Origin: an uncultured Verrucomicrobiota bacterium
GTDB lineage: Bacteria > Verrucomicrobiota > Verrucomicrobiia > Limisphaerales > CAIYYI01
Length of the DNA stretch: 22,798 bases
Assembly: GCA_903930345.1 (NCBI GenBank)
Contig: CAIYYI010000683.1
Coordinates: 1 to 22,798, forward strand
Direction of reading: 5' to 3'
A program made the position numbers and the translations under genes. Below the pieces are notes generated by a model that searched no databases, was not told where the DNA came from, and saw nothing but the letters and a program-made list of their open reading frames with translations. Below are positions 1 through 18,105 of the stretch, one piece after another (position 1 is the stretch's first letter; each line of letters starts with the position of its first letter).

Positions 1-479
1 CCAATCCCTTCCTGCATCACCGTGAAAAAACCTTCCAGCCCATTGATCTCTGGGAGTGGCTGCTGCAATCCGCCGTGTTCCTCTTCCTGCTGGACATTGC
101 GGTGCGGCGCATCCATGTGGACCGTGAGGAATGGCTCAAGGCCACGGAAAACCTGCGGCGGTTGGTCTGTTTTTGGAAGCGGCCCGCCCCGCCGGTGGCC
201 TCGGATGAATCGTTGGCCAGCCTCCTGACCCGCCGGGATGAGGTCCGTTCCCGGCAATCCTCCGTCCCCCAGGTGGCACCCCGCGCGGAACTCTTCCGCC
301 CGGCCAGTGCCCCGGTGGCTCCGTTGCCCGGCACCGAGCCGCCCCCGGATTCCGTCAAGCCCGCTGTCCCGGTCGCCCCGGCCGAGAACGCCCCGGCCAA
401 GGGGCCGGAATCCAGTGCCAGCCGCCTGCTGGAGGCCAAGCGCCGTGCCCTCAGGAACAAGCAGTCAGGGGGCAATTGA
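1..479 (+). CDS. 3' end of a gene continuing upstream of the window; hypothetical membrane-associated protein with a Pro/Ala-rich C-terminal tail
   Basis: Frame 3 is open from the window edge to TGA at 477-479 (..NPFLHHREKTFQPIDLWEWLLQSAVFLFLLDIAVRRIHVD.., then a low-complexity PAPPVAS..PVAPLPGTEPPPDS tail). The hydrophobic stretch looks like a TM helix. No family recognised. Confidence 0.5.
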   Translation, partial: NPFLHHREKTFQPIDLWEWLLQSAVFLFLLDIAVRRIHVDREEWLKATENLRRLVCFWKRPAPPVASDESLASLLTRRDEVRSRQSSVPQVAPRAELFRPASAPVAPLPGTEPPPDSVKPAVPVAPAENAPAKGPESSASRLLEAKRRALRNKQSGGN

Positions 480-483
480 TGGT

Positions 484-948
484 TCAGATACCGCCGCCGT
501 CGGTGAATTCTCCCGCGAAGACCTCATACCCGGCCACCGGTGCCCCGGTGGCCACGCTGGCGAGGGTGGCGTGATCCATCAGGCCGGCCACGGAATTGCG
601 GGCCATGAGGAAGATGCGCCGGAACCGGCAGACCGATTCCTGGCTGCACCGCTCATAGCCATGCACGGAAACACATCCGATCGGGGCCAGAATGCCGTCA
701 AACATCCTGACCACCTCGCCCATGGTGATTTTCTCCGGCGGCTTGGCCAGAAAGTAACCGCCGCGCGCTCCCGCCGCGCTATTCACAAAGCCCTTGGCCT
801 TCAAGGCGAGCATGATCTGCTCCAGGAAGCGCTTGGGGGCGTCGTTGCGCCGCGCCAGCTCGCGGATGGGTATGGGCTGCCCCCCATAATGCTCCACCAG
901 CGTAAACATCGCCCGCAGCGCGTAATCGGTCTTCTTCGAAATCTTCAC
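484..948 (-). CDS. Rrf2-family (IscR/NsrR-like) transcriptional regulator
   Basis: N-terminal wHTH signature ..KISKKTDYALRAMFTLVEH.. is typical of Rrf2 proteins. Three Cys with CX8CX5C spacing (CVSVHGYERCSQESVC) could ligate an Fe-S cluster. Start chosen as GTG at 946-948 (VKISKK..), because Rrf2 proteins begin just before the YALRA motif; the ORF remains open to GTG at 994-996. Stop TGA at 484-486. Confidence 0.8.
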   Translation of the reverse strand: MKISKKTDYALRAMFTLVEHYGGQPIPIRELARRNDAPKRFLEQIMLALKAKGFVNSAAGARGGYFLAKPPEKITMGEVVRMFDGILAPIGCVSVHGYERCSQESVCRFRRIFLMARNSVAGLMDHATLASVATGAPVAGYEVFAGEFTDGGGI

Positions 949-1014
949 GTTGAATGACGATAGGGGTGGTCGTTGATTAGTCAATCGCAAACCCACTGAA
1001 GCTGGGTTTGCGGC

Positions 1015-2430
1015 CTATCGGCCAGTCTTTCGCCGTTGCTCCAGCACAACCAGACGCTGGGTGCTGTACCGGAGCAGGTTGGTATCCGAGATCAGTTTGA
1101 GCTGGTGGATGGCGTCACTAAACGCCTTTTGCTGCTCATAGACGAAGCTCAGGGAATAACGGGCACTGTCCGCCCGGCGCGGGTCGGTGGCGTATTCCAC
1201 CTGCAGTTGGTAGTTTCGGATGAGCTGGTTGGTGGCTTCTGCCCGTTGAAAAGTCTGGCTGGTGGTCAGCAGATACTGCTCGGCGTTCAGGTGGGGTTTG
1301 TCCGGGGGGTCCGCCCGGCTGAGGTTTGGCAGCAGGTAGATTTCCGCAATGAGCGACGCCACCCAGGAGTTCTCGGCGGAATCGTTGGCGTGGCGGCACG
1401 CTTCCGCCGCCAGCGCCAGGCCGGCCCGCTGCTTGGCGGGATCCGGTTGCTCCAACAGTCGGTCAGCTACCCAGAGCACTTGGCCGATCTGCAGGTAGAT
1501 CGCTCCATACGTCGGGGCCTCGGCAATCTTTTTGCGCACCTCGCGCAGGAAGAACAGGGTTTGGGAGGCTGCCTCCTGCTCCTTCAGGTTAAGCTCCCGC
1601 ACTTTGGCGGGCAGTTCCCGGATTCGCCGGGCCTCATATTCAGCGCGCAACCGGGTGAGTTCTTTTTGCTGCTCCGCCAACCGGGTCTGGCAGGCGGCCT
1701 CCGCCTTTTGCTTCTCCAGCCAGGCCAGCCGTTTTTCGCGGGCGGTGGTGCGGAGGGCGGCCAGGTTGGTTTGCAGGTTGAACACGTTTGTCTCCGCGAG
1801 CGCCTGCGCCATCCGGCTGGTTTTGAGGCCGTTCTCACGGGTGGCCAGCTCCTCGCGTTTGAGGGCGGCCATTCGGGCCAGCTTCTGGTTGGGGGCGTTG
1901 GTCAGCCGCTGGGCTTCCTCTGTCGCCGTGGCCGCTTGCCTGGACAGGTCGAGCACGTTGGTCTCCCGCGTGAGGACGTTGGTCTGGGCCAGCCGCAGCT
2001 CCGTGAGGCGGTTGGTCAGCCGGCGCTCCTTTTCGGCCAGGTCGCTTTCCAGGGCTGTCACCGCCACCCGCAGGCTGCGGGTTTCCTCGCGCAGGGTCAG
2101 GCTTTCCTTGCGCCGCCCGGTCAGATCCAGGGCGAGCTGGGCCAGGTTGGTCTCCATCAGCCACAGGTTGGTGCGAAACTGTGTGATCGCCGCCTGCCGG
2201 TTGCTGACGGTTTGCTGGATGTTGAAATCAAAGGGCACCTCCAGGCTGCGCCGTCCGGCCTCCTTTTTGAGGTAATGCCGGAGGGAGAACTTTTTCCACG
2301 TCTCGCTGGCTTGCAGCTTTTGCCAGCCCCACCACCCGCCCACGGCCAGCAGTCCGATGGCGCACGCAATGATGAGCACCCATCGCAGCAGCGAGGCGGT
2401 CACCGGCTGGCTCAGGGGGGTGGCTTTCAT
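1015..2430 (-). CDS. Membrane-anchored coiled-coil protein with Thr-Asn heptad motifs and a C-terminal helical (TPR/Sel1-like?) domain; paralog A
   Basis: ATG start (MKATPLSQ..). One N-terminal TM helix (LLRWVLIIACAIGLLAVGGWWGW), then about 250 aa that are R/E/Q/L-rich and coiled-coil-like with recurring xTN[VL] motifs. The C-terminal ~150 aa (..ENSWVASLIAEIYLLPNLSRADPP..NYQLQVEYATDPRRADSARYSL..) clearly aligns with the C-terminus of the next gene. Confidence 0.7.
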   Translation of the reverse strand: MKATPLSQPVTASLLRWVLIIACAIGLLAVGGWWGWQKLQASETWKKFSLRHYLKKEAGRRSLEVPFDFNIQQTVSNRQAAITQFRTNLWLMETNLAQLALDLTGRRKESLTLREETRSLRVAVTALESDLAEKERRLTNRLTELRLAQTNVLTRETNVLDLSRQAATATEEAQRLTNAPNQKLARMAALKREELATRENGLKTSRMAQALAETNVFNLQTNLAALRTTAREKRLAWLEKQKAEAACQTRLAEQQKELTRLRAEYEARRIRELPAKVRELNLKEQEAASQTLFFLREVRKKIAEAPTYGAIYLQIGQVLWVADRLLEQPDPAKQRAGLALAAEACRHANDSAENSWVASLIAEIYLLPNLSRADPPDKPHLNAEQYLLTTSQTFQRAEATNQLIRNYQLQVEYATDPRRADSARYSLSFVYEQQKAFSDAIHQLKLISDTNLLRYSTQRLVVLEQRRKTGR

Positions 2431-2452
2431 CGGGCGAACAAACAGGTTCCGG

Positions 2453-3682
2453 TCATTTCTGCTGGGCCTTGATGCGCTGCTCCAGGTACGGCACCATGCG
2501 GTTCAGGGCCTTGGTGTAGTTGTTGGTGTTCTTGATGTCCTTCAGGTACCCCAGCGCCTCGCTGTAGTTGCCCGCCTGGTCGTGGGTCACCGCCAGTTGG
2601 TAGCGCGCCCAGTCTGTCCGGTTGGGGTTGGTGGCCTTCGTCAGCAGCAGCTCGTAGTTGCTGATCACCTTGTCCATTTCCTCAGCCTGGCGGAACACGT
2701 TGGCCGTTTCCATCAGCAGGTTCTCCACCGAGAGCGTTCCGCGCCAGTTCGGGTCATCTGCGACATCCAGGTTGGGCCAGATGTAGCCCTCGCAGATGCG
2801 CGCCGCGAGCCAGAAATTCTCCGTGGCGCCCAGGGCGTTGTTGCAGGCCTGGCGGGCGGCGGTGAGGGCCACGCGCCGATGCACCGGATTGGCGCTGCCG
2901 GAAAGCCGCCTGGAGACATACAGTTGCTGGCCGATCAGCTCGTACATGGACCGGTAGGTGGTGGCGGTATCCAGCTTCGATTTGATCGTTTTGGCCAGGG
3001 TGTCATGGGCCACAACGACCTCGTTGGTGGCCGCACTTTGCACGGCGGCCTGTTGGGCCGTCCAGGTGCGGCTGTACACCCCCAGGTCGAGCATTATCGG
3101 TCCCAGTTGGTTGGTTTTGGCGGCGATGGATTGGATGCTTTGCGGGATCTGGTTGGTCAGCGCGCTGATGCTCGCCTTGAGGACCGTCACGTTGGTCTGC
3201 AGCGTCAGGACCGCCGGGTCGGTGGCGTTGGTGCCGACAGAGGTCAGTTGCCTTTCCTGGGCCGCCAGTTGTTTGCGTTTGGCGGCCAGGTCCTGGTACA
3301 GCTCCGTGAGGGAGCGGCGCAGGTGGGTGATTTCCCGTTGCAGGTCATCGGCATCCTTGCGCAGGATTTTGTACTCCTTCTTGGTCAGCAGGTTGGTGGC
3401 CACCACATCGGCGGGCACCTGGTTGGTGTTCCCGGCCGCCATTTCCCGGTCCGAGGGGAACTTGAATTCCACGGTGAAGCTGCCTTTGCCGGTCTGCTTT
3501 TTCAGGTAGCTGTTCACCTGCCACCGGGCGTACCAGGGCTGTTCGGACCCGATGTAATGGAACCAGGCAGCCCCGGCCCCGAGCAAGACCACCGCCGCCA
3601 GAAACAGGGCGATGGCCAGTTTGTTCGACTTGGGCGGCGCGGCGGGCGTCCGTCGCTGGTTCGTGCTTGCGCTTTGATTCAT
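2453..3682 (-). CDS. Membrane-anchored coiled-coil protein with Thr-Asn motifs; paralog B of 1015-2430
   Basis: Same architecture: TM helix LAIALFLAAVVLLGAGAAWF, a TN-rich coiled-coil region, and a C-terminal domain ..ENFWLAARICEGYIWPNLDVADDP..NYELLLTKATNPNRTDWARYQL.. homologous to paralog A. Shared blocks include SYLKKQTGKGSFTVEFKF vs HYLKKEAGRRSLEVPFDF and YELIGQQLYVSRRL vs YLQIGQVLWVADRL. ATG at 3680-3682 preferred (MNQSASTNQ..); the frame stays open to GTG at 3743-3745. Confidence 0.7.
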   Translation of the reverse strand: MNQSASTNQRRTPAAPPKSNKLAIALFLAAVVLLGAGAAWFHYIGSEQPWYARWQVNSYLKKQTGKGSFTVEFKFPSDREMAAGNTNQVPADVVATNLLTKKEYKILRKDADDLQREITHLRRSLTELYQDLAAKRKQLAAQERQLTSVGTNATDPAVLTLQTNVTVLKASISALTNQIPQSIQSIAAKTNQLGPIMLDLGVYSRTWTAQQAAVQSAATNEVVVAHDTLAKTIKSKLDTATTYRSMYELIGQQLYVSRRLSGSANPVHRRVALTAARQACNNALGATENFWLAARICEGYIWPNLDVADDPNWRGTLSVENLLMETANVFRQAEEMDKVISNYELLLTKATNPNRTDWARYQLAVTHDQAGNYSEALGYLKDIKNTNNYTKALNRMVPYLEQRIKAQQK

Positions 3683-3979
3683 AACAATTTCTGACGGAAA
3701 ACGGTTGTGCCGGGCGGGGCGTGCATCAATGAGTGCCTGGTTCACCGAACGCCCCAGCCAGTGACTTATTCAGTTTGACGGAAACCATCCCCCGCACATT
3801 CAGATAATATCTTCCTGTGGTGGCCCCCAAAGGTTGGGTGAATTTCTATCGCCAGGATGATTACTGCGCCACCGCGTATTTTCACCTGGATAGCCCGACG
3901 CATGACCTGCCGCCCTTGCCGCCAGTGGCGGAGCGGACCGCCGGTCTCAAGTAGAACGGTGACCGGCAAATCGCCTGTC

Positions 3980-5622: not shown

Positions 5623-6963
5623 TTAATCCTGCCATGGAACCGCCCCGCCGCGCTGGATGTGGTGGCGGAGGCGTTCGCTTAGCTGCCGGGCCACCGCCCG
5701 TTCCGATGGGAACAGGTTGTTGGTTTCGCCGGGATCGGTCCGCAGGTTGAACAATTCCAAGGGGGCAAAGGGGCTGTCCTGAACCAGTTTCCAATCCCCG
5801 CTGCGCAAGGCCTCAATCGTCTTGCCGCCATACTCGGCACCCCCCTCACGCCGGACGAAGTAATACTCGCGCTCCAGCGCGGGCACCTGCTCACTGCGCA
5901 GCACGGGTAGGAAGCTGCGACCGTCAATGCCGGATGGTATGGGGAGTCCGGCGGCTTCCAGAAAGGTGGGGAAAATGTCCATGCTCAGGGCGGTGCGGGC
6001 CGTCTGGCTGCCAGCCGTGATATGCCCGGGCCACCGCACCGCGCAGGGGACGCGCAGACCTCCCTCGTACAGGTGCTGTTTGCCTGACCGCCAGGGGCCG
6101 TTGTTGGCGCCCAGGGCCAGCACGCCGCCGTTGTCCGAGGTGTAAAGGATCAGGGTGTTCTGCTCCAGGCCGCGTTCCTTCAACGTGGCCAGCACCCGGC
6201 CAATGCCGGCATCCAGATGCTCGATCAGCGCCACCAGCTTGGCCCGCTTGGGGCTCAAGCCAGGTTCGCGCTTGCGCACTTTTTCCAGCCACTCGGGTGG
6301 TGGTTGGATGGGGTCGTGCGGGGCGTTGAAGGCCAGGTAGAGGAAAAAGGGCTGCGCTGGGGTTTGGGTGGCCAGCCACTCGCTCGCCCAATCCGCAAAC
6401 AGATCCGTGGCATGCCCGGTGGGGTTGATGTCCTCATCGTTATGGCGCAGGTAATTGGTGTCGTGGCGCAGGTGCGTGTAATAGTCGTCCATCATGTCGC
6501 CCAGAAAACCGTGGAAGTGGTCGAATCCCCGTTCGCGGGGAAGATTCGGGGAGGCCAGGCCCAGATGCCATTTACCCACCAGGGCGGTCCGGTATCCGGC
6601 CTGCTTGAGGTATTGGGGGAGCAGTCGGGCGCGGGGATCCAGATGCCCCCAGGAATTGGAGCCGTGCGACCGGATCACGCCGGGCACCCCCACCCGGTCG
6701 GGATGGCACCCGGTCAGCAGCGCGGCGCGGGTGGGGGAGCAGACGCAGCTGTTGGCGTAGAAGTTGTCAAACGTCATGCCCTCCTGAAACAATCGGTCCA
6801 GGCTGGGGGTCTGGAGGTCGCGGGTGCCATAGGCGCTGTAATCCCCGCGCCCTTGGTCGTCGGTCACAATCAGGAGCAGGTTGGGCGGGGTGGGTGCTCC
6901 CTTGACCGCCATGGTGGCGGCCAGCAAAAGGGCTGCCCAGGCGAAGTGGCGGATTGCTTTCAT
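5623..6963 (-). CDS. Arylsulfatase (type I sulfatase, formylglycine-dependent), secreted
   Basis: Signal peptide MKAIRHFAWAALLLAATMAVKG. Sulfatase signature ..LLLIVTDDQGRGD.. and the CxPxR active-site motif inside SCVCSPTRAALLTG (formylglycine Cys). Downstream GKWHLG and other conserved sulfatase blocks are present. 446 aa. Confidence 0.9.
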   Translation of the reverse strand: MKAIRHFAWAALLLAATMAVKGAPTPPNLLLIVTDDQGRGDYSAYGTRDLQTPSLDRLFQEGMTFDNFYANSCVCSPTRAALLTGCHPDRVGVPGVIRSHGSNSWGHLDPRARLLPQYLKQAGYRTALVGKWHLGLASPNLPRERGFDHFHGFLGDMMDDYYTHLRHDTNYLRHNDEDINPTGHATDLFADWASEWLATQTPAQPFFLYLAFNAPHDPIQPPPEWLEKVRKREPGLSPKRAKLVALIEHLDAGIGRVLATLKERGLEQNTLILYTSDNGGVLALGANNGPWRSGKQHLYEGGLRVPCAVRWPGHITAGSQTARTALSMDIFPTFLEAAGLPIPSGIDGRSFLPVLRSEQVPALEREYYFVRREGGAEYGGKTIEALRSGDWKLVQDSPFAPLELFNLRTDPGETNNLFPSERAVARQLSERLRHHIQRGGAVPWQD

Positions 6964-7817: not shown

Positions 7818-8771
7818 TCAGACGGCCGGGCTAATGACCTTGCTTTCCAGTAAATCGCTCAGGATTCCGCAGGCGGTGATTTCATCGCCGCCATAATTAT
7901 CGATGATCGCCTGCAGGACGGCGTGCTTGCGTACCAGGTCCAATATCTGCAACTCGGTCGGCTGGTCCGACCGGGGCTGGGTGGTGGCCTGCGGGGTAAC
8001 TTTCAGACGGGCTTGTAAATCAGGCAGCCGGGCTTCCAGGCTGGTGATCACATCGTCGTAATGAGCAGCGTCCAGCAGTAGGAAATCCAGCGCGCAATCC
8101 AGGCTGCCATCAGCGACGAATGGCTCTGGCTTGGTGAAAGCAAAAGTGCCGGTTTTCCAGCGCAGCAGCCGTAGCCAGGTGCGTTTGGCGGTTAGCGACG
8201 GACCGGGGGTTAGCGTTACGTGCGCCACTTGGCCGCCTTGCAGGTGGATGCTGCCTTGCTGGTGCTTGCGCTGGACTTTCAAAACCCCGTCGCTGTTGGC
8301 GTGCGAAAGTAGTTGGACTACGCTCCCCATGGGCACTTCCGTGAGGGAGCCGGACATGGAGTTGGCGAGCTCTCGAGCTGTGCTGGCGCCTGATGCTGCC
8401 GCCGGCTCAGTGGCTGCCGGTTGGAAGGCGGCACTGAAGCGGGTGATCCGGATCAGCATGAATGAATGCCTGCCAATGCGGACCCGGTCGCCTTCTTTCA
8501 TCAACACGCTTATGACCTTCTTGCGATTGAAGGAAAGTGTTGGGGTGCGGCCCAGATCGTTAACCAGCGCGCACTGGTCATTTTGGCTCACAGAAGCCAG
8601 CGGGATTTGAGGGTTGGGTTCATTGATGAGGATGTCTCCGGTATCCGGAGCGGCTCCCGGCTCGGACGGAGCCTGGCTGATGATGAGCGAACCTTCCGCA
8701 GGCAGCGGAAAATCCCGCCCTTGGTTTTGCCCAGTTAGAAAGTGCAAGGCCAGCATCATTGTCTTCCCCAT
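7818..8771 (-). CDS. Signalling adaptor: divergent FHA-like N-terminal domain plus DUF4388 domain
   Basis: The N-terminal region (..LHFLTGQNQGRDFPLPAEGSLIIS..DILINEPNP..NDLGRTPTLSFNRKKVISVLMKEGDRVRIGRHSFML) follows the FHA beta-sandwich pattern, with ..L.dGD.i.iG...f at the end, but the phospho-Thr-binding residues are changed. The central block GSLTEVPMGSVVQLLSHANSDGVLKVQRKHQQGSIHLQGGQVAHV..WLRLLRWKTGTFAFTKPEP is a classic DUF4388 (PF14332) signature. Start placed at ATG 8769-8771 (MGKTMML..); the longer ORF to 8885 would overlap the upstream gene by 90 bp. Confidence 0.65.
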   Translation of the reverse strand: MGKTMMLALHFLTGQNQGRDFPLPAEGSLIISQAPSEPGAAPDTGDILINEPNPQIPLASVSQNDQCALVNDLGRTPTLSFNRKKVISVLMKEGDRVRIGRHSFMLIRITRFSAAFQPAATEPAAASGASTARELANSMSGSLTEVPMGSVVQLLSHANSDGVLKVQRKHQQGSIHLQGGQVAHVTLTPGPSLTAKRTWLRLLRWKTGTFAFTKPEPFVADGSLDCALDFLLLDAAHYDDVITSLEARLPDLQARLKVTPQATTQPRSDQPTELQILDLVRKHAVLQAIIDNYGGDEITACGILSDLLESKVISPAV

Positions 8772-8794
8772 CTTGCCTGTGGCATGGCGGGTAT

Positions 8795-10483
8795 TCAAGC
8801 GCCAACCAACCCCGTGGGCAGTCGGAATTTTCGGGCTTTCCGGCCCGTTAGAAAGGAGGTGGATAGTTCCATTCGGCCTGGCCAAGAGATGGTTCTGCCA
8901 GGCAGGAGCTCGTATTTGTCCCGCAGGAGCACACGTGTCGACTCTGAGATTTGAATGCTTCCTGCTTGCCCTTGAGCTTCCAGCAGGCAGGCGGCTTGAA
9001 CGGTTTCACCCCAGAGGTCGTAGATTAGCTTCTTTCTTCCAATCACGCCGCCCACCACAGGTCCGCTGCATAGGCCGATCCGCAGATGCAGTGGCATGCC
9101 GTTGTTTGCGGACAAACGCTTGATCACGCGCTGCATTTCCAAAGCCATCTCTGCGGCGGCGCTTGCATGGTCCTTGCGCAACATGGGTACTCCTGCCGCT
9201 GCCATGTAGCAGTCCGCCACCGTTTTGATCTTTTCCACTTCATGCAGCTCCGCCAGCCAGTCGAACTGGGCATAAATTTCATTGAGCAGGCTGACTGCCC
9301 CAGTGGGGGGGTGATCACGGGTAGCGCTGATAAAGCCGGTAATGTTGGCAAAGAGGACTGTGGCGCTGGGGTGGACGTCGGCAATGGGGGTCTCCCCTTG
9401 GATTAGGCGTTCCGCAATTGTTTTGGGGAGCAAATTGGCTATCAGTTGCTGTGTTTTTCGCTGCTCCAATTGCAGCAGCTCCAGCATGCCATGCTCTCGG
9501 TCACGCAAACGCTTTTTCTCTAGGGCCGCATTCAGGCGGACGTTGAGCAGTACCGGGTTGAACGGCTTCGTCAGGTAATCCTCGGCTCCGATCTCTATGC
9601 AGCGGATGACGTTGTCGGCCTCGTCCAAGGCAGAAAGCATGATCACCGGAATGTGTTTGAGATCCGGGTCAGCTATGATGGCCTGCAGAGTTTGGTAACC
9701 GTCCATCCGGGGCATTATCACATCCAGCAGAATCAGGTCGAATGGCTGTGATTTCAGCAGTTGCAGCGCCTCCAGGCCGTTTTCTGCTTCCACCAGTCGG
9801 TGGCCCTGACGCTCCAGTCGGCGGGAGAGCATATCCCGGTTCATCTCGTTGTCATCCACCAGCAGGATGTCGCTTTTGCGGCTGCTGGAAGCGGTGGCTT
9901 CCTTTTCGGTGGCGACGGACGAGGAGAGGGGTGGGGGACTGCTGGGCAGAATGGCAGGACCCCGTTTGTGCACATCCAGCCGGCTGGGGAAGCTGGCGCT
10001 CTCGAACAGAGCCATCAGGTTGCGCGCTGCCGCGCTAATCTTTTGCAGGTCAGGCAACAGTTCCAGGGACCCGGACTCCTCCACCAGTTCCTGACAAAGC
10101 TCGCTGTAGCCAATGATTAAATTGAGCGGGGTGCGCATCTCCAGCCGGAGGGCGTTCATATCAAGCGCGCCAGATTCCAGCCTCCACGGGGCTAGGGCCT
10201 CGTTGATCAGGGAGAGCAGTTGTCCCCCCGCCGTGTGCACTTTTTGCAGGTCGGGAAGGAATTCCTTTTGCGCCTCGGTGGTTAATTCCTCCATCAGGAG
10301 TTCGCAATACCCCAGAATCTGGTTTAGCGGGGTGCGCAGGGAATGGCGCATGCCGGCCAGTGAATCCTGGGGATTGTGGCCACCAAAGCTGGAATCAGCG
10401 TCCGCCGTCTGCGCCTCCTGGGCTGTGGAGTTGGCGGGTTTTTGGCTGGCTTTTGCGTGGCCTGTGGCGTCCGGGGAGTTCAC
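8795..10483 (-). CDS. Multidomain signalling protein: tandem DHp (HisKA-like) domains without an ATPase domain, a REC receiver, and a degenerate class III adenylate/guanylate cyclase homology domain (probable pseudo-cyclase)
   Basis: DHp1 ..GMRHSLRTPLNQILGYCELLMEEL.. (H47 present) and DHp2 ..LRLEMRTPLNLIIGYSELCQEL.. (Leu at the His position) both resemble the DHp of the upstream hybrid kinase. No HATPase_c N/G1/G2 boxes follow. REC: DILLVDDNEMNRDMLSRRL..LILLDVIMPRMDG..LTKPF. CHD (aa ~372-525): ..VLFANITGFIS..KIKTVADCYMAAAG..LRIGLCSGPVVGGVIGRKKLIYDLWGETVQAACLLEAQG..IQISEST. GTG start at 10481-10483 overlaps the TGA of the upstream REC gene (GTGA). Confidence 0.8.
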   Translation of the reverse strand: MNSPDATGHAKASQKPANSTAQEAQTADADSSFGGHNPQDSLAGMRHSLRTPLNQILGYCELLMEELTTEAQKEFLPDLQKVHTAGGQLLSLINEALAPWRLESGALDMNALRLEMRTPLNLIIGYSELCQELVEESGSLELLPDLQKISAAARNLMALFESASFPSRLDVHKRGPAILPSSPPPLSSSVATEKEATASSSRKSDILLVDDNEMNRDMLSRRLERQGHRLVEAENGLEALQLLKSQPFDLILLDVIMPRMDGYQTLQAIIADPDLKHIPVIMLSALDEADNVIRCIEIGAEDYLTKPFNPVLLNVRLNAALEKKRLRDREHGMLELLQLEQRKTQQLIANLLPKTIAERLIQGETPIADVHPSATVLFANITGFISATRDHPPTGAVSLLNEIYAQFDWLAELHEVEKIKTVADCYMAAAGVPMLRKDHASAAAEMALEMQRVIKRLSANNGMPLHLRIGLCSGPVVGGVIGRKKLIYDLWGETVQAACLLEAQGQAGSIQISESTRVLLRDKYELLPGRTISWPGRMELSTSFLTGRKARKFRLPTGLVGA

Positions 10484-10854
10484 GTGCGGGGGCGTTTGAG
10501 CAGAAGGTCAATCTTTTCCAGCAGTCGAGGCAGCTCGATGGGCTTCGTGTCGTAATCGTCGCAGCCGGCTTCCAGGGCTTTTTCGCGGTCGCCCGCCATG
10601 GCATGGGCGGTCAGGGCAATGATGGGGATGTCGGTGGTCAATGGTGCGGACTTGATCACTTTGGTGGCCTCCCAGCCGTCTAATACGGGCAGGCTCATGT
10701 CCATCAGGATCAGGTCCGGCAATTCGCTCTGGGCCTTGGCCACTCCATCCGAGCCGTCGGCTGCCATCACCACCTCAAAGCCCCTTCGGATCAGTCGGCG
10801 GGAGAGCATGTCCCGGTTCATTTCGTTGTCTTCTACCAGTAAAATTTTGGGCAT
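10480..10854 (-). CDS. Stand-alone response-regulator receiver (CheY-like) protein
   Basis: MPKILLVEDNEMNRDMLSRRL..LILMDMSLPVLDG..IIALTAHA..KALEAGCDDYDTKP has all the conserved REC positions (DD pair, phospho-Asp in LMDMS, T/S, K). 124 aa, no output domain. Confidence 0.9.
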   Translation of the reverse strand: MPKILLVEDNEMNRDMLSRRLIRRGFEVVMAADGSDGVAKAQSELPDLILMDMSLPVLDGWEATKVIKSAPLTTDIPIIALTAHAMAGDREKALEAGCDDYDTKPIELPRLLEKIDLLLKRPRT

Positions 10855-10879
10855 GTTATGGGCTCCTGGTCGGGAGCGG

Positions 10880-13294
10880 TTAAGAGTTGGGTTTGGGTAA
10901 AACCTTTTTTACCAGGTCGCGTACCTGTTGTGCCAGAGCCTCGGGCGAGCAGGAACCCTTTTGGACCACTGTCTCGACCAGGCCTTGCAGCCGCTGGTGT
11001 TCTGCGTCTGTCATCTCCATTCCAGTCACCACTACCACCGGGATTGACTGCCATTCTGGCTGTTGGCGGAAGTACTCCAGAAATTCAAAGCCGTTCATTT
11101 CCGGCATCATCATGTCGAGCATGATTAGCGATGGGGGCGGGCCTTGCTCTAGTTTCTCCACGGCATCGTGGCCGTTGCTTGCCTCGCTTACCTGCCAGCC
11201 TTCCTTTGTCAGGATGGCGCGCAGAATGCGCCTGGTTTCCTCATCATCATCCACTAGCAGCACTTCGCTGTGCTGGCTGCTCTTGCGGTATTTTTTCAGC
11301 AGCGTGGAGAGCTGGTCCCGTTGGATGGGTTTGGTGAGATACTCTGATGCGCCCAGTGCAAAGCCCATGTGGCGGTCTTCGATCATGCTCAGCATGATCA
11401 CGGGGATTTTTGCTACTTCCGGATCGGCCTTCAGGGCATTCAGCACCGTCCATCCGTCCATGTCAGGCATCATGACATCTAGGGTGATGACATCGGGCTT
11501 AAACTCCCTCGCCATGCGCAGACCATCTTTGCCGCCCTTGGCGGTTTCCACCCGGTATCCTTCCTTTTCCAGGAAGCGCTTCATGAGATCGTGAACCACT
11601 GGATCATCGTCCACGACCAGGATTCGGCTGGCATCCTTGGGCAGGGTTGCGCGGTTGCGGGCGGGTTCCGTGGTCGCGTTTTCCTCACCTTCGGTGGCGG
11701 GTTGGCAGACGGATGGCAGCCTTAGGGTGAAGGTGGACCCTTTCCCGTATTCACTGCTTACCAGGGCGTCGCCGCCCATTAGCCTACAGAACCGCCGGGT
11801 GATGGCCAGACCCAGTCCGGTGCCGCCAAACTTTTTGGTCGTGCCCGCGTCCGCCTGCACAAAAGGTTGGAATAATCTCTCCATCTGTTCAGGCAGCAGG
11901 CCGATTCCGGTGTCGCTCACGCTCAGGTTGATCCATTCCCTGTCGCTTTCCGACTGCCTTTGGGCTTGCAGGGTGATGGTTCCTTGCTTGGTGAATTTGC
12001 AGGCGTTGCTGAGCAGGTTAAACAGCGATTGTCTTACCTTGGTCAGGTCGGCAGTCATGCTCCCTAGAGCCGCATCGCACTTCACGGTGATGTTGTTGTT
12101 GTTCTTTTCCAGCAGGGGCTGAATGGTGGCGGTCACCTCCTTCACTAGATCGTCAACGGAGAATTCCTCCAGATACAGGGTGATTTTCCCAGCCTCAATC
12201 TTGGAAAGGTCTAGGATGTCATTGATAAGGGAAAGCAGATGCTTTCCGGCACTGTGAATATTTTTCAGGTCTGCCTCCATCGCCTCCTCCCCCATGTCGG
12301 CAGTCTCCTCCATCAGCATCTCGCTGTAGCCAATGATGGCATTGAGGGGGGTGCGCAGCTCATGGCTCATGTTGGCCAGAAAGGCGCTTTTGGATTGGCT
12401 GGCCTCCTCAGCGTCGTTTCGGGCTTTTTGCGCATCCATGGTGGCCTGCTCCAGTTCCACCGTGCGCTCCCTGACCTTGGTTTCAAGGGTGGAGTTGGCC
12501 TCCTGCAGGCGGTGGTTGGACTCCTCAGTGGCGGTGTTGGCCGCCCGCAGCTCCTCATTTCTGCGGCTGATCGTGCCCACCATCTCGTTGAATGCCCGCA
12601 TCAGTGCTCCCATTTCGTCCTGCCCTTTTGGGATGACGCGCACGGAAAAATCATGTCGGTCTGTTAGTGCCCGCGCGGCTGCGCCCAACTCTTGAACGGG
12701 CCTGATGATGATCCGTTGTAACGCAAAGGAAATAAAGAGGGAAGCCAGCGAGGAAACTAGTATGACGATGGCCGCGATGTTGGCATAGCGCTTGTAATTG
12801 GTGTTGAGGGCTCCCTTCAAGTCAGCTTTTAAGTAGAGCACCCCCACCCGTTTTCCTTCGTTCTCAATGGGGCGGAACAGGATCAGGGTCCCCCCTTCAA
12901 AGTGATGTCGGAGCTGCCGGGGAACCAGTGGCACTAATTCAGAGCTTGAAGGATGCAAGTATCTTGCAATTAACAAATTATCTGAGCCCTCGTTGTAGTT
13001 ATACAGGCCGGCTGCCAGAATATGCGGATAACCAGCTAGTGTATTCAGTGCCTGGGTGGCTTCAGCCCGTTTATCCTGTTGCATCAACCCGCTTACGCTG
13101 CTGCTCAGCATCGTGGCGGTGGCGTTCAGATCCTGGATGGCATTCTGGTTAAACTTGTATACTTCATAAGCGATGATGCCGCCACCTCCAGCCAGCGATG
13201 AAATCAGACTGGCCGTCAGCAATCCCCCCATCAGCTTCCAGCGAAATGAAACAGTGTCTAGCCAGCGCATGGTTAGTTTTATTTTGCCCGGCAT
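10880..13294 (-). CDS. Hybrid sensor histidine kinase: 2 TM with periplasmic sensor, HAMP, HisKA, HATPase_c, then two REC domains
   Basis: TM1 ~aa 20-43, a periplasmic domain of about 125 aa, and TM2 IAAIVILVSSLASLFISFAL. HAMP-like region QRIIIRPVQELGAAARAL..MGALMRAFNEMV. H-box ..FLANMSHELRTPLNAIIGYSEML. (H311). N/G boxes ..LFNLLSNACKFT..DTGIGL..GGTGLGLAI.. REC1 ILVVDDDPVVHDL..LDVMMPDMDG..LTKP and REC2 VLLVDDDEETRRIL..LDMMMPEMNG. ATG at 13292-13294; an alternative ATG lies 8 codons in. Confidence 0.9.
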   Translation of the reverse strand: MPGKIKLTMRWLDTVSFRWKLMGGLLTASLISSLAGGGGIIAYEVYKFNQNAIQDLNATATMLSSSVSGLMQQDKRAEATQALNTLAGYPHILAAGLYNYNEGSDNLLIARYLHPSSSELVPLVPRQLRHHFEGGTLILFRPIENEGKRVGVLYLKADLKGALNTNYKRYANIAAIVILVSSLASLFISFALQRIIIRPVQELGAAARALTDRHDFSVRVIPKGQDEMGALMRAFNEMVGTISRRNEELRAANTATEESNHRLQEANSTLETKVRERTVELEQATMDAQKARNDAEEASQSKSAFLANMSHELRTPLNAIIGYSEMLMEETADMGEEAMEADLKNIHSAGKHLLSLINDILDLSKIEAGKITLYLEEFSVDDLVKEVTATIQPLLEKNNNNITVKCDAALGSMTADLTKVRQSLFNLLSNACKFTKQGTITLQAQRQSESDREWINLSVSDTGIGLLPEQMERLFQPFVQADAGTTKKFGGTGLGLAITRRFCRLMGGDALVSSEYGKGSTFTLRLPSVCQPATEGEENATTEPARNRATLPKDASRILVVDDDPVVHDLMKRFLEKEGYRVETAKGGKDGLRMAREFKPDVITLDVMMPDMDGWTVLNALKADPEVAKIPVIMLSMIEDRHMGFALGASEYLTKPIQRDQLSTLLKKYRKSSQHSEVLLVDDDEETRRILRAILTKEGWQVSEASNGHDAVEKLEQGPPPSLIMLDMMMPEMNGFEFLEYFRQQPEWQSIPVVVVTGMEMTDAEHQRLQGLVETVVQKGSCSPEALAQQVRDLVKKVLPKPNS

Positions 13295-15681: not shown

Positions 15682-17940
15682 CTATTTTGCCGCCGCCGGG
15701 GCGTTGGTTGATTCCAGGTTGGCCGGAGTTTTTACCACCGGGCTTTTGACCTGCCGAACAACGCCCGGCAACGGATCGCCTAGGCGGCCGTTGGTCCATT
15801 CATTGATGAAGCCCATATTGTTCAGGACTGTGTAGGTCAGCCACAGGAGGACCACCAGCACCACTACCGACGGCCACGGGCTCTTCTTGTCGGCAAAGGC
15901 GTCGGTGATGTCGCGTTGCGCGCCGGGTGGCAGCTTGGCCACCTCCGTGAGGGAGCTGCCAAAAGGCACGTTTATACGCGCCTTGGCGTTGATGGCCCAG
16001 CCGTTGGCATCCAGGATCGGCCCCAGGTTGCGTTTGCGCAGCTTGAGCCATGCAATCAACATGGAAGGACCTGAAATGAGGAGGGTGAGGGCCACAAACA
16101 CCAGCGGAATCTGCCAGGTGGGCAGCTTGATGATGCCCGTGGCCAGCGCGGAGAGCGCCGTGCCAATGGCCCCGAAAGCCACGCCCAGGGCCGCCACCGC
16201 TCCGACATCGATCTTCTTCACCTCCGCCGGTTTCGATTTGTCCAGGTTCGCGGTCGTGGCGGCTGCCGTCTGGAGCTTGGTGGTGGATTCCGCGTCGGCC
16301 GCTGCTGCGCGTTTGGCGATCTGCTCCTCGATCATCCGCACCAGTTTCTTGTACGGTGCCCAGAAGGCCTGCCGGATGCTGATCGGGTTATCCACAATGC
16401 GGGTGATCGTCGCGTCCCAATCCCGCCCTTTGCGGTCGTAAAACACGCCGTTGCGGCCCGGCATCAGATTGTCGCTGTCGCCATCGGTGAACGCTGCGAG
16501 GATCTGCATTTTCTCCCCGGTGCTCTTGCGCACGCAGTCGCAGTACGCCAGGTAGGTGCCCGCCAGTCCCGCCATGGCGGCGTGCTTGCCGGCATCCTCC
16601 ACGGTGAGGCAGAGGTCGCAGCTCCGCTGGTCCAGATAGAGCTTGCCCGCCTGGAAAATGGCCTTGGTTTTGCGTCCGTAAAAATCGTAGAACGAGACGA
16701 AGTTGACGAGCAGCCGGTACAGGTCGCGGTTGAGGCGGACGAGCTTGTCCACCGCCACAATCGAGTTGGACTCGGCTTCCAGGGCTTTGTCCTTGGCGAG
16801 GAGCGCCAGGATGGCCGCCTGGCCCGGACCAGCCAGGATTTCCCGCACCCGACCCAGCCCCAGCTTTTCCACGCTGACCCCCGCTTTGGCGGCCTGCCAA
16901 GTCTCAAAAGGGATAAACTTGGCCGCCAGCAAATTCCAGTCGGCTTCGGTGATCGTCGTCTGATTTCCCAGCACTGGCGCCACCACCTCGGCTTGCAACC
17001 GGGCCAGCACACCTGCCCAGGCCGGGTTGACGCCCACCAGCAGGTCCAGCGGCTTGCCTGACTCCACCCGCGCCGCAGGCAAGGCCAGGATTTCGGCCGA
17101 GCCCAGGGTTAGATCCCGTGTGGCCAGGGTCTGGTATTCCTTCTCGTCTCGGTTTAACGGCGCTTGGGCCCGTGGGTCAAACGCCGCCAGTCGGCACCGG
17201 GCAAAATAATCGTCCACCTTGGTCCGGGCGGCCTTGATGGCGGCCAGAGCGCTGCCCGTGGCCTCCCCTAATGGCCGTAGCGTGGGATCGGTCTCCGCCT
17301 TTTTCCACCAATCTGAATAGGCCCGGGCCTCGGCCAGAAACAGTTCCAGCCGTGCCTGGCTGATGCCTGGTTTGCCGCTGCGATCCGGCTCCGATCCGCT
17401 GCAGGCAATGATGTCGGTGATGACGCTCACAATCGCCGCATCCGTGGTTGAATCGGCGGGGATGATGCCGTCGCCGTTGAACTTCGTCTGCGCAAAGATT
17501 CGGGTCGTGTCGGTGGTGTCTTCCACTGAAATCTCCGTGGCGTCCGGCTTGCCAAGGTTGACCAGGATTTGTTTGGCGGAGGTTAGCAGTTGCTTGCCTT
17601 CCGGCAGCGCGTCGTTGATGGCGTCCAGCGGCAGGGAGGGGGAGCTTTTCAGCAGGATATCTGCGTTCTTCAGGTTGGCGCAGGCCCACTTGGTGGCCGC
17701 CAGAATCTCCGGTGCCCGCACCCGCCCGTCCTTGTCCGTGTCTACCAGGTCCAGCGTGCGGGTGTCGAACTCCAGCCCGCGGGTGGGGCAGCTCAGCGCC
17801 ACCCAAAGTTTCTGGTCCAGCTTTTCCAGGTTCTGAATGTCCGCTCCCGATTGCAGGTTGACCTGGTCAAAACCACCGGCCCGGAAAAAATTCCAGACAT
17901 GCCGGTTTCCGTTGCCGGTTTTTATCAAGGTTGAGGTCAT
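15682..17940 (-). CDS. Large conserved hypothetical membrane protein: ~600-aa soluble N-terminal region with EF-hand-like loop and CxxC..CxC cluster, plus three C-terminal TM helices
   Basis: ATG at 17938-17940 (MTSTLIKTGNGNRHVWNFF..); an in-frame GTG at 17968-17970 would add 10 aa. DTDKDGRVRAPEI resembles a Ca-binding loop. CDLCLTV..(22 aa)..AYCDCV could be a metal site. Distinctive block GEKMQILAAFTDGDSDNLMPGRNGVFYDRKGRDWDATITRIVDNPISIRQAFWAPYKKL. Three predicted C-terminal TM segments. No family recognised. Confidence 0.7.
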   Translation of the reverse strand: MTSTLIKTGNGNRHVWNFFRAGGFDQVNLQSGADIQNLEKLDQKLWVALSCPTRGLEFDTRTLDLVDTDKDGRVRAPEILAATKWACANLKNADILLKSSPSLPLDAINDALPEGKQLLTSAKQILVNLGKPDATEISVEDTTDTTRIFAQTKFNGDGIIPADSTTDAAIVSVITDIIACSGSEPDRSGKPGISQARLELFLAEARAYSDWWKKAETDPTLRPLGEATGSALAAIKAARTKVDDYFARCRLAAFDPRAQAPLNRDEKEYQTLATRDLTLGSAEILALPAARVESGKPLDLLVGVNPAWAGVLARLQAEVVAPVLGNQTTITEADWNLLAAKFIPFETWQAAKAGVSVEKLGLGRVREILAGPGQAAILALLAKDKALEAESNSIVAVDKLVRLNRDLYRLLVNFVSFYDFYGRKTKAIFQAGKLYLDQRSCDLCLTVEDAGKHAAMAGLAGTYLAYCDCVRKSTGEKMQILAAFTDGDSDNLMPGRNGVFYDRKGRDWDATITRIVDNPISIRQAFWAPYKKLVRMIEEQIAKRAAAADAESTTKLQTAAATTANLDKSKPAEVKKIDVGAVAALGVAFGAIGTALSALATGIIKLPTWQIPLVFVALTLLISGPSMLIAWLKLRKRNLGPILDANGWAINAKARINVPFGSSLTEVAKLPPGAQRDITDAFADKKSPWPSVVVLVVLLWLTYTVLNNMGFINEWTNGRLGDPLPGVVRQVKSPVVKTPANLESTNAPAAAK

Positions 17941-18055
17941 GATTTGCTTGGCTTGGTTTATCGTTTGCACCGGTGTTTTTCAATCTGAAACGCCCTGCGA
18001 CCGGCCCGGATACTTTGGGTGGCCACGGAGCATATACTAGGCTGGGTTTTTGTTT

Positions 18056-18094: not shown

Positions 18095-18105
18095 TGTCCA
18101 GCCTT

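What the first reader, a model, noticed from the sequence alone, without database searches (positions are those of the whole stretch)
1015..3682. Tandem paralogous membrane-anchored coiled-coil proteins with heptad-spaced Thr-Asn motifs, encoded by GTTGGTC DNA repeats, followed by an Rrf2 regulator
The two adjacent genes (22-bp gap) encode proteins with a single N-terminal TM helix, a long coiled-coil and a homologous C-terminal helical domain. In paralog A, xTN[VL] motifs occur in pairs exactly 7 residues apart (RTNL/ETNL at aa 87/94, QTNV/ETNV at 150/157, ETNV/QTNL at 214/221), and the pairs recur every ~63-64 aa. Extra single TN motifs sit at aa 139-140 and 177-178. Paralog B has TN every 13-14 residues (aa 150, 163, 176, 190). 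At DNA level this appears as at least seven GTTGGT hexamers on the plus strand between 1765-2175 (five as GTTGGTC), and eight more between ~3030-3430. Asn at fixed heptad positions usually sets coiled-coil register and oligomeric state. I do not recognise the family. The downstream Rrf2 gene (Cys CX8CX5C) may complete the operon.
Basis: seen in the sequence. Interest (0 to 1): 0.6.

Follow-up and report, generated by a model that had tools for sequence, protein, structure and literature searches.

The report
Membrane-anchored hairpin-plus-TPR paralog pair
Two adjacent genes encode paralogs of an unnamed protein family, found so far only in Verrucomicrobia, with a membrane anchor, a long folded-back helical arm and a TPR-like base; the Thr-Asn motif is real and conserved, but it sits beside the helix core rather than in it, and the DNA repeats are only its codons.

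Summary
Genes B (2453-3682, minus strand) and A (1015-2430, minus strand) are paralogs. Each has an N-terminal TM helix, a long helical stalk and a homologous C-terminal helical domain.

- **Stalk:** AlphaFold2 (pLDDT 90-94) folds it as an intramolecular antiparallel hairpin, not a parallel coiled coil. The tip sits at a conserved TN-x-P/D turn.
- **Asn position:** heptad analysis puts Thr at f and Asn at g (consensus a-g = [LV]-x-x-L-Q-[TS]-N). Asn is therefore not at core positions a or d.
- **DNA repeats:** GTTGGT(C) is the reverse complement of (G)ACC-AAC. Low-GC orthologs keep TN with other codons, so the constraint is on the protein.
- **Rrf2:** the gene is genuine but is absent from all other loci examined. 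A strong hairpin and a promoter-like site separate it from gene A.

The family has no Pfam or NCBIfam model. It has about 126 clusters at 50% identity, and every genome hit is a Verrucomicrobiota MAG. Arm length runs from none to about 180 residues. Distant members carry signal-peptide-like N-termini, so the body is probably periplasmic. Heterotypic tandem pairs recur. Function is unknown; my inference is a periplasmic scaffold or adaptor. Interest is modest.

The parts
2453..3682 (-). Gene B: 409-aa member of the B-type subfamily (~400 aa) of the TM-hairpin-TPR family. NCBI calls an alternative GTG start at 3745 (430 aa).
   Evidence: ORF. Homologs P0004-P0013 are 33-46% identical over 84-100% of the query. 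The homolog alignment begins at the ATG at 3682. JGI aa and NCBI 430 aa.
3554..3622 (-). B: N-terminal transmembrane helix (aa 21-43), a probable uncleaved signal anchor.
   Evidence: AF2 helix H21-43. Hydropathy scan.
3032..3373 (-). B: antiparallel helical hairpin. Arm 1 is aa 104-149 and arm 2 is aa 156-217.
3218..3235 (-). B: hairpin tip loop G-T-N-A-T-D (aa 150-155). It carries the most widely conserved TN of the B-type subfamily.
   Evidence: Loop in the AF2 model. An aligned x-TN-x tip is present in most B-type homologs.
2456..3022 (-). B: C-terminal TPR-like helical-repeat domain (aa 221-409) with the family signature N-x-W-L-A-A-R-I-C-E-G-Y-x-W-P-N-L.
1015..2430 (-). Gene A: 471-aa member of the long A-type subfamily. 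Its signature motif is degenerate (WVASLIAEIY).
   Evidence: ORF. BLASTP against B gives E = 7e-35. Its C-domain is closest to L014_1, P0015, L007_B, P0018 and P0167 at 41-43% identity. Motif divergence is seen.
2308..2397 (-). A: N-terminal transmembrane helix (aa 12-41).
   Evidence: AF2 helix H12-41. Hydropathy scan.
1522..2220 (-). A: long antiparallel helical hairpin. Arm 1 is aa 71-175 (~16 nm) and arm 2 is aa 182-303. It carries the heptad-paired TN motifs at 87/94, 150/157 and 214/221.
1888..1905 (-). A: hairpin tip loop L-T-N-A-P-N (aa 176-181).
   Evidence: Loop in the AF2 model. Equivalent TN-x-P tips lie at mid-stalk in P0056 and P0015.
1018..1509 (-). A: C-terminal TPR-like helical-repeat domain (aa 308-471).
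986..1012 (-). Stem-loop immediately after the stop codon of A (CGCAAACCCA - 7 nt - UGGGUUUGCG). It is terminator-like but has no U tract.
   Evidence: Sequence. RNA fold of 940-1030: -28.2 kcal/mol, z = -3.5 against shuffles.
957..984 (-). Sigma-70-like promoter match (TTGACT-16-TATCGT) just upstream of the probable Rrf2 start.
   Evidence: This is a consensus match only.
484..948 (-). Rrf2-family regulator. The probable start is the GTG at 948 (MKISKKTDYALRAM...); the ORF is open back to 996. It has Cys-x8-Cys-x5-Cys. It is a neighbour, not a conserved part of the unit.
   Evidence: PF02082 at E = 2e-33 and TIGR00738 at 1e-29. No Rrf2 in any other family locus.

Best explanation
A and B are ancient paralogs from two subfamilies of an uncharacterised protein family. 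So far it has been found only in Verrucomicrobiota.

**Architecture (predicted).** Each protein has these parts in order:
- an N-terminal signal-anchor TM helix;
- a conserved basic juxtamembrane helix (Y-L-K-K-x-T-G...F);
- an intramolecular antiparallel two-helix hairpin;
- a C-terminal TPR-like helical-repeat domain.
Because the hairpin returns on itself, the C-terminal domain ends up back at the membrane-proximal base. The hairpin is a variable insertion. It is absent in the 233-260-aa members, 46 residues per arm in B, 105 in A and about 175 in the 604-628-aa members. At 1.5 A per residue that is roughly 0-26 nm.

**TN motif (shown).** It is a protein-level, heptad-phased feature with consensus a-g = [LV]-x-x-L-Q-[TS]-N. 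Thr sits at f and Asn at g, so the motif forms an uncharged polar stripe beside the hydrophobic seam rather than in it. A TN-x-P/D turn also forms the hairpin tip. The GTTGGT(C) DNA repeats are the antisense of (G)ACC-AAC codons in a GC-rich gene with strong codon bias.

**Location and function (inferred).**
- The body of the protein is periplasmic.
- It acts as an inner-membrane-anchored scaffold or adaptor, possibly chaperone-like. The TPR-like base would bind a partner, and the hairpin would work as a reach or spacer arm.
- The Q/T/N stripe and TN tip would mediate association with another hairpin, probably that of the tandem paralog, or with an envelope ligand.

**Rrf2.** It is an unrelated neighbour with its own promoter.
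For: **Family**
- An exhaustive profile search with the C-terminal domain finds 126 clusters (50% identity) at E <= 1e-30, with lengths of 105-628 aa. About 233 aa is the shortest apparently full-length member.
- No Pfam or NCBIfam family matches.
- All 9 genome loci come from Verrucomicrobiota MAGs.

**Architecture**
- AF2 models have pLDDT 90.5 and 94.4 and pTM 0.72 and 0.70. Each shows two long helices joined by a 6-residue loop at mid-stalk.
- Helix-breaking tips lie at a median relative position of 0.49 of the stalk; tip position scales with stalk length with slope 0.51.
- Short members contain only the TM helix, the juxtamembrane motif and the C-domain.
- The juxtamembrane motif and the C-domain are conserved together.

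**TN motif**
- Family stalks hold 243 TN against 48 expected.
- The heptad profile gives Thr = f and Asn = g.
- TN-TN spacings of 7 and 14 are enriched 4-5-fold.
- TN blocks align positionally between homologs that are only 30-40% identical.

**Codons**
- L007_A (39% GC) has 13 TN encoded by five different codon pairs.
- The window uses ACC-AAC in 18 of 20 TN, in line with its general Thr and Asn codon bias.

**Periplasmic location**
- Distant homologs begin with N-termini that look by eye like cleavable signal peptides (P0143, P0145, P0146, P0147, P0151, P0152, P0161, P0162).
- Others begin with an N-terminal zinc ribbon followed by a TM helix (P0150, P0158).
- A Spy/CpxP-like Metal_resist gene, itself carrying a signal peptide, is the divergent neighbour in 4 independent loci.

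**Pairing**
- Tandem pairs occur in the window, L007, L014 and L016, and probably on the P0002 contig.
- In the four pairs with sequence in hand, the two genes cluster apart in a rough C-domain identity tree.

**Rrf2 independence:**
Against: - No experiment and no coordinates were available to me. The hairpin is a monomer AF2 prediction, and monomer runs tend to fold long helices back on themselves.
- The positive-inside rule is ambiguous for the anchored members. The N-flank carries +2.5 net charge and the C-flank +1.7.
- Gene context is not consistent across loci. Neighbours are Metal_resist in some, nusA-infB-rbfA in others and psd-pssA-tricorn in others, so context gives no firm functional link.
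- Fold matches are only at module level (generic TPR proteins, generic hairpins).
- The role of the TN stripe is pure inference.
- In B only one of the stalk TN motifs has a confident f/g assignment. The others fall at e/f or a/b with low margins.
Confidence: 0.55

Rival explanations
1. The stalks are inter-chain parallel coiled coils, and Asn at fixed heptad positions is buried in the core. It would set register and oligomeric state, as Asn at a does in GCN4 or Asn at d in trimeric adhesins.
For: The stalk has clear heptad periodicity, and TN pairs lie 7 or 14 residues apart. Monomer AF2 cannot exclude inter-chain pairing.
Against: - Asn falls at g, or at f in the LTN[RQ] class, and not at a or d.
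- Conserved G/P/N-containing turns lie at mid-stalk.
- Both arms are modelled with pLDDT above 95, and pTM is about 0.7.
- The C-domain is conserved together with the juxtamembrane segment, which fits a fold-back.
Confidence: 0.1
2. The family is a Verrucomicrobial counterpart of YfgM, the inner-membrane-anchored TPR partner of PpiD at the SecYEG translocon. It would have acquired a coiled-coil hairpin insertion and would act in periplasmic protein biogenesis.
For: - The inferred topology and the TPR-like body are the same as in YfgM.
- Short members (233-260 aa) are close to YfgM in size (206 aa).
- PF09976 (TPR_21) gives sub-threshold hits in 11 of 55 members.
- A Spy-like chaperone gene lies next door in 4 loci, and one member gives an OmpH/Skp hit.
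Against: - hhalign of the family profile against E. coli YfgM is not significant (probability 0.8%).
- TPR_21 matches cover only one ~60-residue TPR stretch and stay below the gathering score.
- No ppiD or sec gene was identified among the neighbours examined.
Confidence: 0.15
3. The bulk of the protein is cytoplasmic (N-out, C-in). It would act as a membrane-tethered cytoskeletal or membrane-organising coiled-coil protein of the EzrA or PspA type.
For: - The juxtamembrane segment after the TM helix is strongly basic (+4.3 net charge over 30 residues).
- Three loci have nusA-infB-rbfA immediately downstream.
Against: - Several distant homologs have N-termini that look like cleavable signal peptides, and two have a zinc ribbon ahead of the TM helix. 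Both features put the conserved domain outside the cytoplasm.
- The N-terminal tails are short and net positive right next to the TM helix.
Confidence: 0.1
4. The GTTGGT(C) hexamers are functional DNA elements, for example protein-binding sites or recombination or slippage repeats that drive stalk-length variation. The TN motif would then be their by-product.
For: The window holds 32 copies against about 11 expected, and 21 of them are concentrated in 2.7 kb. Stalk length varies widely in the family.
Against: - Nearly all copies lie in frame as ACC-AAC, the preferred Thr and Asn codons of these genes.
- Orthologs keep TN with ACA-AAT, ACT-AAT, ACG-AAC and other pairs, and have 0-2 ACCAAC copies.
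- Sequence similarity between the stalk segments carrying the motif pairs is only marginal, which argues against recent repeat-driven duplication.
Confidence: 0.02
5. B, A and Rrf2 form one functional operon. The Fe-S or redox-sensing Rrf2 regulator would control, or be controlled with, the two membrane proteins.
For: The three genes share a strand. The gap between the stop of A and the probable Rrf2 start is 66 bp.
Against: - Rrf2 is absent from all other family loci.
- A stable stem-loop follows the stop of A, and a promoter-like site precedes Rrf2.
Confidence: 0.08

Closest known systems
YfgM (PF09976/TPR_21; ancillary SecYEG subunit, partner of PpiD)
   Different: There is no significant sequence or profile relationship. 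YfgM has no coiled-coil hairpin and none of the family signatures (YLKKxTG, WLAARICEGY). The structural similarity is no better than to many unrelated TPR proteins.
CpoB/YbgF (Tol-Pal-associated; coiled coil plus TPR)
   Different: CpoB is soluble, has a cleaved signal peptide and carries a short parallel trimeric coiled coil. Here the protein is TM-anchored with an intramolecular antiparallel hairpin. No tol-pal genes lie nearby.
EnvC / RipA / PcsB-type proteins (long antiparallel coiled-coil hairpin plus globular domain, docked on FtsX)
   Different: The globular domain here is TPR-like, not a LytM, NlpC/P60 or CHAP hydrolase. No ftsEX genes were identified among the neighbours examined. These proteins are not TM-anchored in the same way.
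Hairpin domains of periplasmic adaptor (membrane-fusion) proteins and MCP signalling hairpins
   Different: The lipoyl and beta-barrel domains of adaptor proteins are absent, as are the MCP methylation and signalling motifs. The tip motif here is TN-x-P/D.
Core-Asn coiled-coil motifs (GCN4 Asn at a; trimeric-adhesin 'N@d' [ILV]-x-x-N-T-x-x layers; recalled from memory)
   Same: Asn recurs in a fixed heptad phase next to Thr.
   Different: The order is T-N, not N-T. Asn is at g (flanking) and Thr at f, so the motif is not a buried polar layer.

Membership tests
Rrf2 transcriptional regulators (gene 484-948/996 only) | A match to PF02082/TIGR00738 above the curated cut-off, including the N-terminal wHTH. 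| tested here: met
   PF02082 scores 115.7 bits (cut-off 30) and TIGR00738 scores 103 bits (cut-off 73.3).
Rrf2 transcriptional regulators (Fe-S-binding subgroup: IscR/NsrR/RirA) | Three clustered C-terminal Cys ligands, and an equivalog-level match. | tested here: inconclusive
   C-x8-C-x5-C is present. All equivalog models (CymR, IscR, NsrR, RirA) score far below their cut-offs.
TPR repeat proteins (C-terminal domain of A and B) | TPR sequence repeats above the Pfam gathering score. | tested here: not met
   The best hit for B is TPR_12 at 20.6 bits against a 30.1 cut-off. A has no hit.
TPR repeat proteins (C-terminal domain of A and B) | A TPR-like helical-repeat fold. | tested here: met
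YfgM / TPR_21 (PF09976) | A sequence match to PF09976 above the gathering score, or a significant profile match to YfgM. | tested here: not met
   The best TPR_21 hit is 19.6 bits against a 25.5 cut-off and covers profile positions 88-140 of 193. hhalign probability is 0.8%.
YfgM / TPR_21 (PF09976) | An N-terminal TM anchor with a periplasmic TPR-like domain. | tested here: met
   TM helices are seen. Periplasmic location is inferred from signal-peptide-like N-termini (by eye) and zinc-ribbon-TM homologs.
YfgM / TPR_21 (PF09976) | Association with PpiD and SecYEG. | not testable with these tools
   No interaction data exist. No ppiD or sec gene was identified among the neighbours examined.
CpoB/YbgF | An N-terminal trimerisation coiled coil (PF16331) and a tol-pal gene context. 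| tested here: not met
   PF16331 gives E = 0.059 and 13.9 bits against a 30.1 cut-off. No tol-pal genes are present in the window or the loci.
Canonical coiled coil with register-setting core Asn | Asn occupying heptad position a or d. | tested here: not met
   The TN-anchored hydrophobicity profile gives Thr = f and Asn = g. Per-motif register calls for A are f/g for five of the six paired motifs.
Periplasmic adaptor (membrane-fusion) proteins | Lipoyl and beta-barrel domains flanking the hairpin (HlyD-family Pfam models). | tested here: not met
   Neither A nor B has a HlyD-type Pfam hit. Both models are all-helical.
EnvC/RipA/PcsB-type hairpin hydrolase regulators | A catalytic or degenerate LytM, NlpC/P60 or CHAP domain, and an FtsEX partnership. 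| tested here: not met
   No such domain is present. No ftsE or ftsX gene was identified among the neighbours examined.

The most novel reading that the evidence does not exclude
The Q(e)-T(f)-N(g) stripe and the TN-x-P tip are a dedicated recognition code. It would zip hairpins of unequal-length paralogs (B ~7 nm, A ~16 nm, others up to ~26 nm) into hetero-oligomeric, inner-membrane-anchored struts. These struts would probe or set periplasmic spacing, or reach peptidoglycan or the outer membrane. That would make this a Verrucomicrobia-specific envelope 'ruler' or scaffold system with no sequence homolog in model bacteria.
Probability: 0.1. Interest if true: 0.55.

Novelty: new variant of a known kind. 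Interest (0 to 1): 0.3.

Why it matters
- The result defines and delimits an unannotated family: about 126 clusters at 50% identity, with no Pfam or NCBIfam model, found only in Verrucomicrobiota among the genomes scanned. The phylum's envelope biology is largely unexplored.
- The family is a natural series of one fold with hairpin arms from none to about 180 residues, and it often occurs as heterotypic tandem pairs. That suits tests of how coiled-coil length relates to envelope geometry.
- The conserved uncharged Q-T-N flank (e, f, g) is an unusual heptad composition. Coiled-coil specialists could test it as an association or orientation determinant.
- On present evidence it is still a hypothetical structural or scaffold protein built from familiar modules. 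It is not a new mechanism.

Tried and rejected
- **Family libraries.** Pfam and NCBIfam scans of A and B gave only sub-threshold TPR and generic coiled-coil noise such as SMC, crescentin and ATG16.
- **Word-indexed homolog search with A.** It found only A itself and one other protein. The family became visible only through B and the exhaustive profile search.
- **Stalk of A against PDB sequences.** Nothing relevant was found.
- **Internal duplication as the source of the 63-64-aa spacing.** Only marginal similarity was seen (z = 2.1-2.8).
- **Positive-inside rule for topology.** It was inconclusive, and homolog N-termini were used instead.
- **N-glycosylation sequon reading (N-x-S/T).** By eye in the table, Ser or Thr is present two residues after Asn in only about 17% of motifs, so I rejected it.
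- **Conserved gene context.** Neighbours differ between clades.
- **AFDB Foldseek.** The library was unavailable.
- **Literature.** Four full-text searches found no description of this family or motif.


Full report
**Observation**

All three genes lie on the minus strand. B is 2453-3682 (409 aa), A is 1015-2430 (471 aa) and the Rrf2 ORF is 484-996. The B-A gap is 22 bp.

- A: 87, 94, 139, 150, 157, 177, 214 and 221.
- B: 151, 163, 176 and 190.
- Both proteins have further copies.

TN is enriched in both proteins: 10 observed against 1.6 expected in A, and 10 against 2.4 in B. On the plus strand GTTGGT starts at 1765, 1897, 1957, 1978, 2011, 2146 and 2167, five of these as GTTGGTC. Eight further copies lie at 3023-3422. 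The window holds 32 copies against 11.3 +/- 3.5 in shuffles.

A and B are paralogs. BLASTP gives E = 7e-35 and 27% identity, and the C-terminal domains are 36% identical.

**The DNA repeats are a codon by-product**

GTTGGT is the reverse complement of ACC-AAC, and GTTGGTC adds the final G of a preceding CAG or GAG codon (Gln or Glu). In the window 18 of 20 TN dipeptides use ACC-AAC. That matches the genes' general codon bias (Thr ACC 26 of 37 and Asn AAC 21 of 21 in A).

Orthologs with 39-44% GC keep the TN enrichment but encode it differently. L007_A has 13 TN spread over five codon pairs. L008, L011 and L012 have no ACCAAC at all. The constraint is therefore on the protein.

**The family**

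Neither protein matches a Pfam or NCBIfam family. Only sub-threshold TPR hits and coiled-coil noise appear. Word-indexed searches found 20 relatives.

An exhaustive profile search with the C-terminal domain found 126 clusters (50% identity) at E <= 1e-30 and 471 at E <= 1e-10. Source annotations read 'hypothetical protein' or 'TPR repeat protein', apart from two evidently automatic labels. All nine loci found among GTDB species representatives come from Verrucomicrobiota MAGs.

Conserved elements are:
- the TM helix;
- a basic juxtamembrane motif (P-W-x-V-R-W-x-I-x-R-Y-L-K-K-Q-T-G...F);
- the C-terminal domain, with signature Y-x-x-x-Y-x-L-I-G-Q-x-L-W-V-A ... N-x-W-L-A-A-R-I-C-E-G-Y-x-W-P-N-L.

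The region between the juxtamembrane motif and the C-domain ranges from about 17 to about 388 residues. Members of 233-260 aa lack it altogether.

**Structure**

AlphaFold2 with a 55-sequence alignment gives confident models.

| | B | A |
|---|---|---|
| Mean pLDDT / pTM | 90.5 / 0.72 | 94.4 / 0.70 |
| TM helix | 21-43 | 12-41 |
| Juxtamembrane helix | 49-64 | 43-58 |
| Hairpin arm 1 | 104-149 | 71-175 |
| Tip loop | 150-155 (GTNATD) | 176-181 (LTNAPN) |
| Hairpin arm 2 | 156-217 | 182-303 |
| C-terminal helical repeats | 221-408 | 308-470 |

The stalk is thus an intramolecular antiparallel hairpin. It brings the C-terminal domain back to the membrane-proximal base, which explains why the juxtamembrane motif and the C-domain are conserved together.

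Two further points support the hairpin:
- A crude helix-breaker scan across 33 members puts the break at a median 0.49 of the stalk, and its position scales with stalk length with slope 0.51.

**The TN motif**

I anchored on 105 TN motifs from 20 family members, and then on 180 motifs from 41 members. Strongly hydrophobic residues peak at -12, -9, -5, -2, +2, +5, +9 and +12 relative to Thr. This 3-4 spacing fixes +2 as position a and -2 and +5 as position d. Thr is then f and Asn is g. The consensus heptad is a-g = [LV]-[LA]-x-L-Q-[TS]-N.

A second class, L-T-N-[RQ], places Asn at f. A window-based register call for A gives f/g for the motifs at 87, 94, 157, 214 and 221.

The motif is nevertheless real and constrained:
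- Family stalks hold 243 TN against 48 expected.
- TN-TN distances of 7 and 14 occur 18 and 21 times against about 4.2 expected, with no enrichment at 21-42.
- Blocks such as R-R-L-T-N-R-L-x-E-L-x-L-A-Q-T-N-V-L-R-x-E-T-N and x-T-N-V-x-x-L-Q-T-N-L align between homologs that are only 30-40% identical.
- A TN-x-P/D turn forms the hairpin tip in both subfamilies.

These counts include related sequences, so they are not independent events. The proposed 63-64-aa super-period rests on three motif pairs and marginal internal similarity (z = 2.1-2.8).

**Location**

The positive-inside rule is ambiguous for the anchored members. Distant but clear homologs (E about 1e-24 to 1e-28) settle it better.
- Several start with what look by eye like cleavable signal peptides, for example P0151 MIIKLFLTCLVVVGTTVLA|QG, and also P0143, P0145, P0146, P0147, P0152, P0161 and P0162.
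- Others start with a zinc ribbon followed by a TM helix (P0150, P0158).

Both arrangements place the conserved domain outside the cytoplasm. I therefore infer that A and B are type-II anchored periplasmic proteins. At 1.5 A per residue the arms would project about 7 nm in B, about 16 nm in A and up to about 26 nm in the 604-628-aa members. This geometry is inference.

**Context**

Rrf2 occurs next to the family only in this window. tblastn found none in the other 14 fetched loci, about 10 of them independent.

Directly after the stop codon of A lies a 10-bp-stem hairpin at 986-1012 (fold of 940-1030: -28.2 kcal/mol, z = -3.5). A TTGACT-16-TATCGT match at 957-984 follows it. The homology-supported Rrf2 start is the GTG at 948. 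Rrf2 is most likely an independent unit.

Recurrent neighbours differ by clade:
- a divergent, signal-peptide-bearing Metal_resist/LTXXQ gene (Spy/CpxP-like) in L001-5, L006 and L009;
- nusA-infB-rbfA downstream in L008, L010 and L011;
- psd-pssA-lysE-tricorn protease upstream in L014 and L016, and the tricorn-type protease alone on the P0174 contig.

The only feature that recurs across clades is tandem pairing of members from different subfamilies:
- B-type then A-type in the window and in L007, whose family genes are 39-44% GC against 63-64% here;
- A-type then short-type in L014 and L016;
- probably a 604-aa gene followed by a 420-aa gene on the P0002 contig.

Paralog A has also degenerated the family's most conserved motif, reading WVASLIAEIY.

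**Mechanism**

| Status | Statement |
|---|---|
| Shown | Paralogy; family membership; protein-level TN conservation; the f/g register |
| Predicted with high confidence | TM anchor, fold-back hairpin and TPR-like base |
| Inferred | Periplasmic location; a scaffold or adaptor role for the TPR-like base; a reach or spacer role for the variable hairpin; hairpin-hairpin or ligand contacts through the uncharged Q/T/N flank and the TN tip; cooperation between the tandem paralogs |

**Comparison with known families**

The nearest analogues share architecture, not ancestry:
- YfgM (TM plus TPR);
- CpoB (coiled coil plus TPR);
- EnvC, RipA and PcsB (long hairpin plus globular base);
- the length-variable hairpins of membrane-fusion proteins and MCPs.

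Membership of YfgM/TPR_21 was tested and not met. CpoB, membrane-fusion-protein and EnvC-type membership also fail on their defining domains.

**Verdict**

This is an uncharacterised family, so far found only in Verrucomicrobiota, built from familiar modules and carrying an unusual conserved flanking-polar heptad motif. I class it as a new variant of a known kind, of modest interest (0.3).

Noticed in passing
window 20479-20647 (+) and 20723-22534 (+): A c-di-AMP riboswitch (RF00379, 57.8 bits against a gathering score of 38) lies directly upstream of a 603-aa SPFH/Band_7-domain gene. I do not recall SPFH genes among the usual ydaO-type riboswitch targets.
   Followed up: partly
window 7818-13294 (-): A signalling cluster with three genes: a DUF4388 protein, a HisKA-receiver-adenylate/guanylate cyclase fusion, and a CHASE8/HAMP hybrid histidine kinase with two receiver stretches.
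   Followed up: no
window 15682-17970 (-): A 762-aa ORF with no Pfam match at E <= 0.001.
   Followed up: no
window 18094-18660 (+): A 188-aa ORF with a sub-threshold AP2-domain hit (29.0 bits against a 33.3 cut-off).
   Followed up: no
L001 7248-7823, L004 6206-6793, L006 6496-7020, L009 ~6571-6960: In four independent loci a Metal_resist/LTXXQ gene (Spy/CpxP-like) is transcribed divergently from the B-type family gene. The L006 copy has an N-terminus that looks like a signal peptide. The window has no such gene.
   Followed up: partly
L008 3895-9525, L010 2366-7201, L011 8763-13566: In a low-GC clade the family gene sits about 200 bp upstream of what I read, from the N-terminal sequences alone, as a nusA-infB-rbfA operon.
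   Followed up: no
L014 283-6002, L016 1-7847, P0174 contig: In L014 and L016, phosphatidylserine decarboxylase, a CDP-alcohol phosphatidyltransferase, a LysE exporter and a tricorn-type S41 protease lie divergently upstream of the family gene or pair. On the P0174 contig only the tricorn-type protease is seen there.
   Followed up: partly
P0150 (545 aa), P0158 (502 aa); P0143, P0145, P0146, P0147, P0151, P0152, P0161, P0162: Distant family members replace the simple signal anchor. Two have an N-terminal zinc ribbon followed by a TM helix; eight have an N-terminus that looks by eye like a cleavable signal peptide. I used this to infer the topology.
   Followed up: partly
window 3683-3745 (-): Annotation discrepancy: NCBI calls B from the GTG at 3745 (430 aa) and JGI from the ATG at 3682 (409 aa). 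The homolog alignment favours 3682.
   Followed up: yes
window 1345-1374 (-), protein A aa 353-362: Paralog A deviates at three nearly invariant positions of the family signature, reading WVASLIAEIY against the consensus WLAARICEGY. Other A-type proteins keep the consensus. A may be a degenerate partner subunit.
   Followed up: partly
window 75-479 (+): The C-terminal end of a gene that runs off the left edge of the window. It is Pro/Ala-rich, has no Pfam match and is convergent with Rrf2.
   Followed up: no
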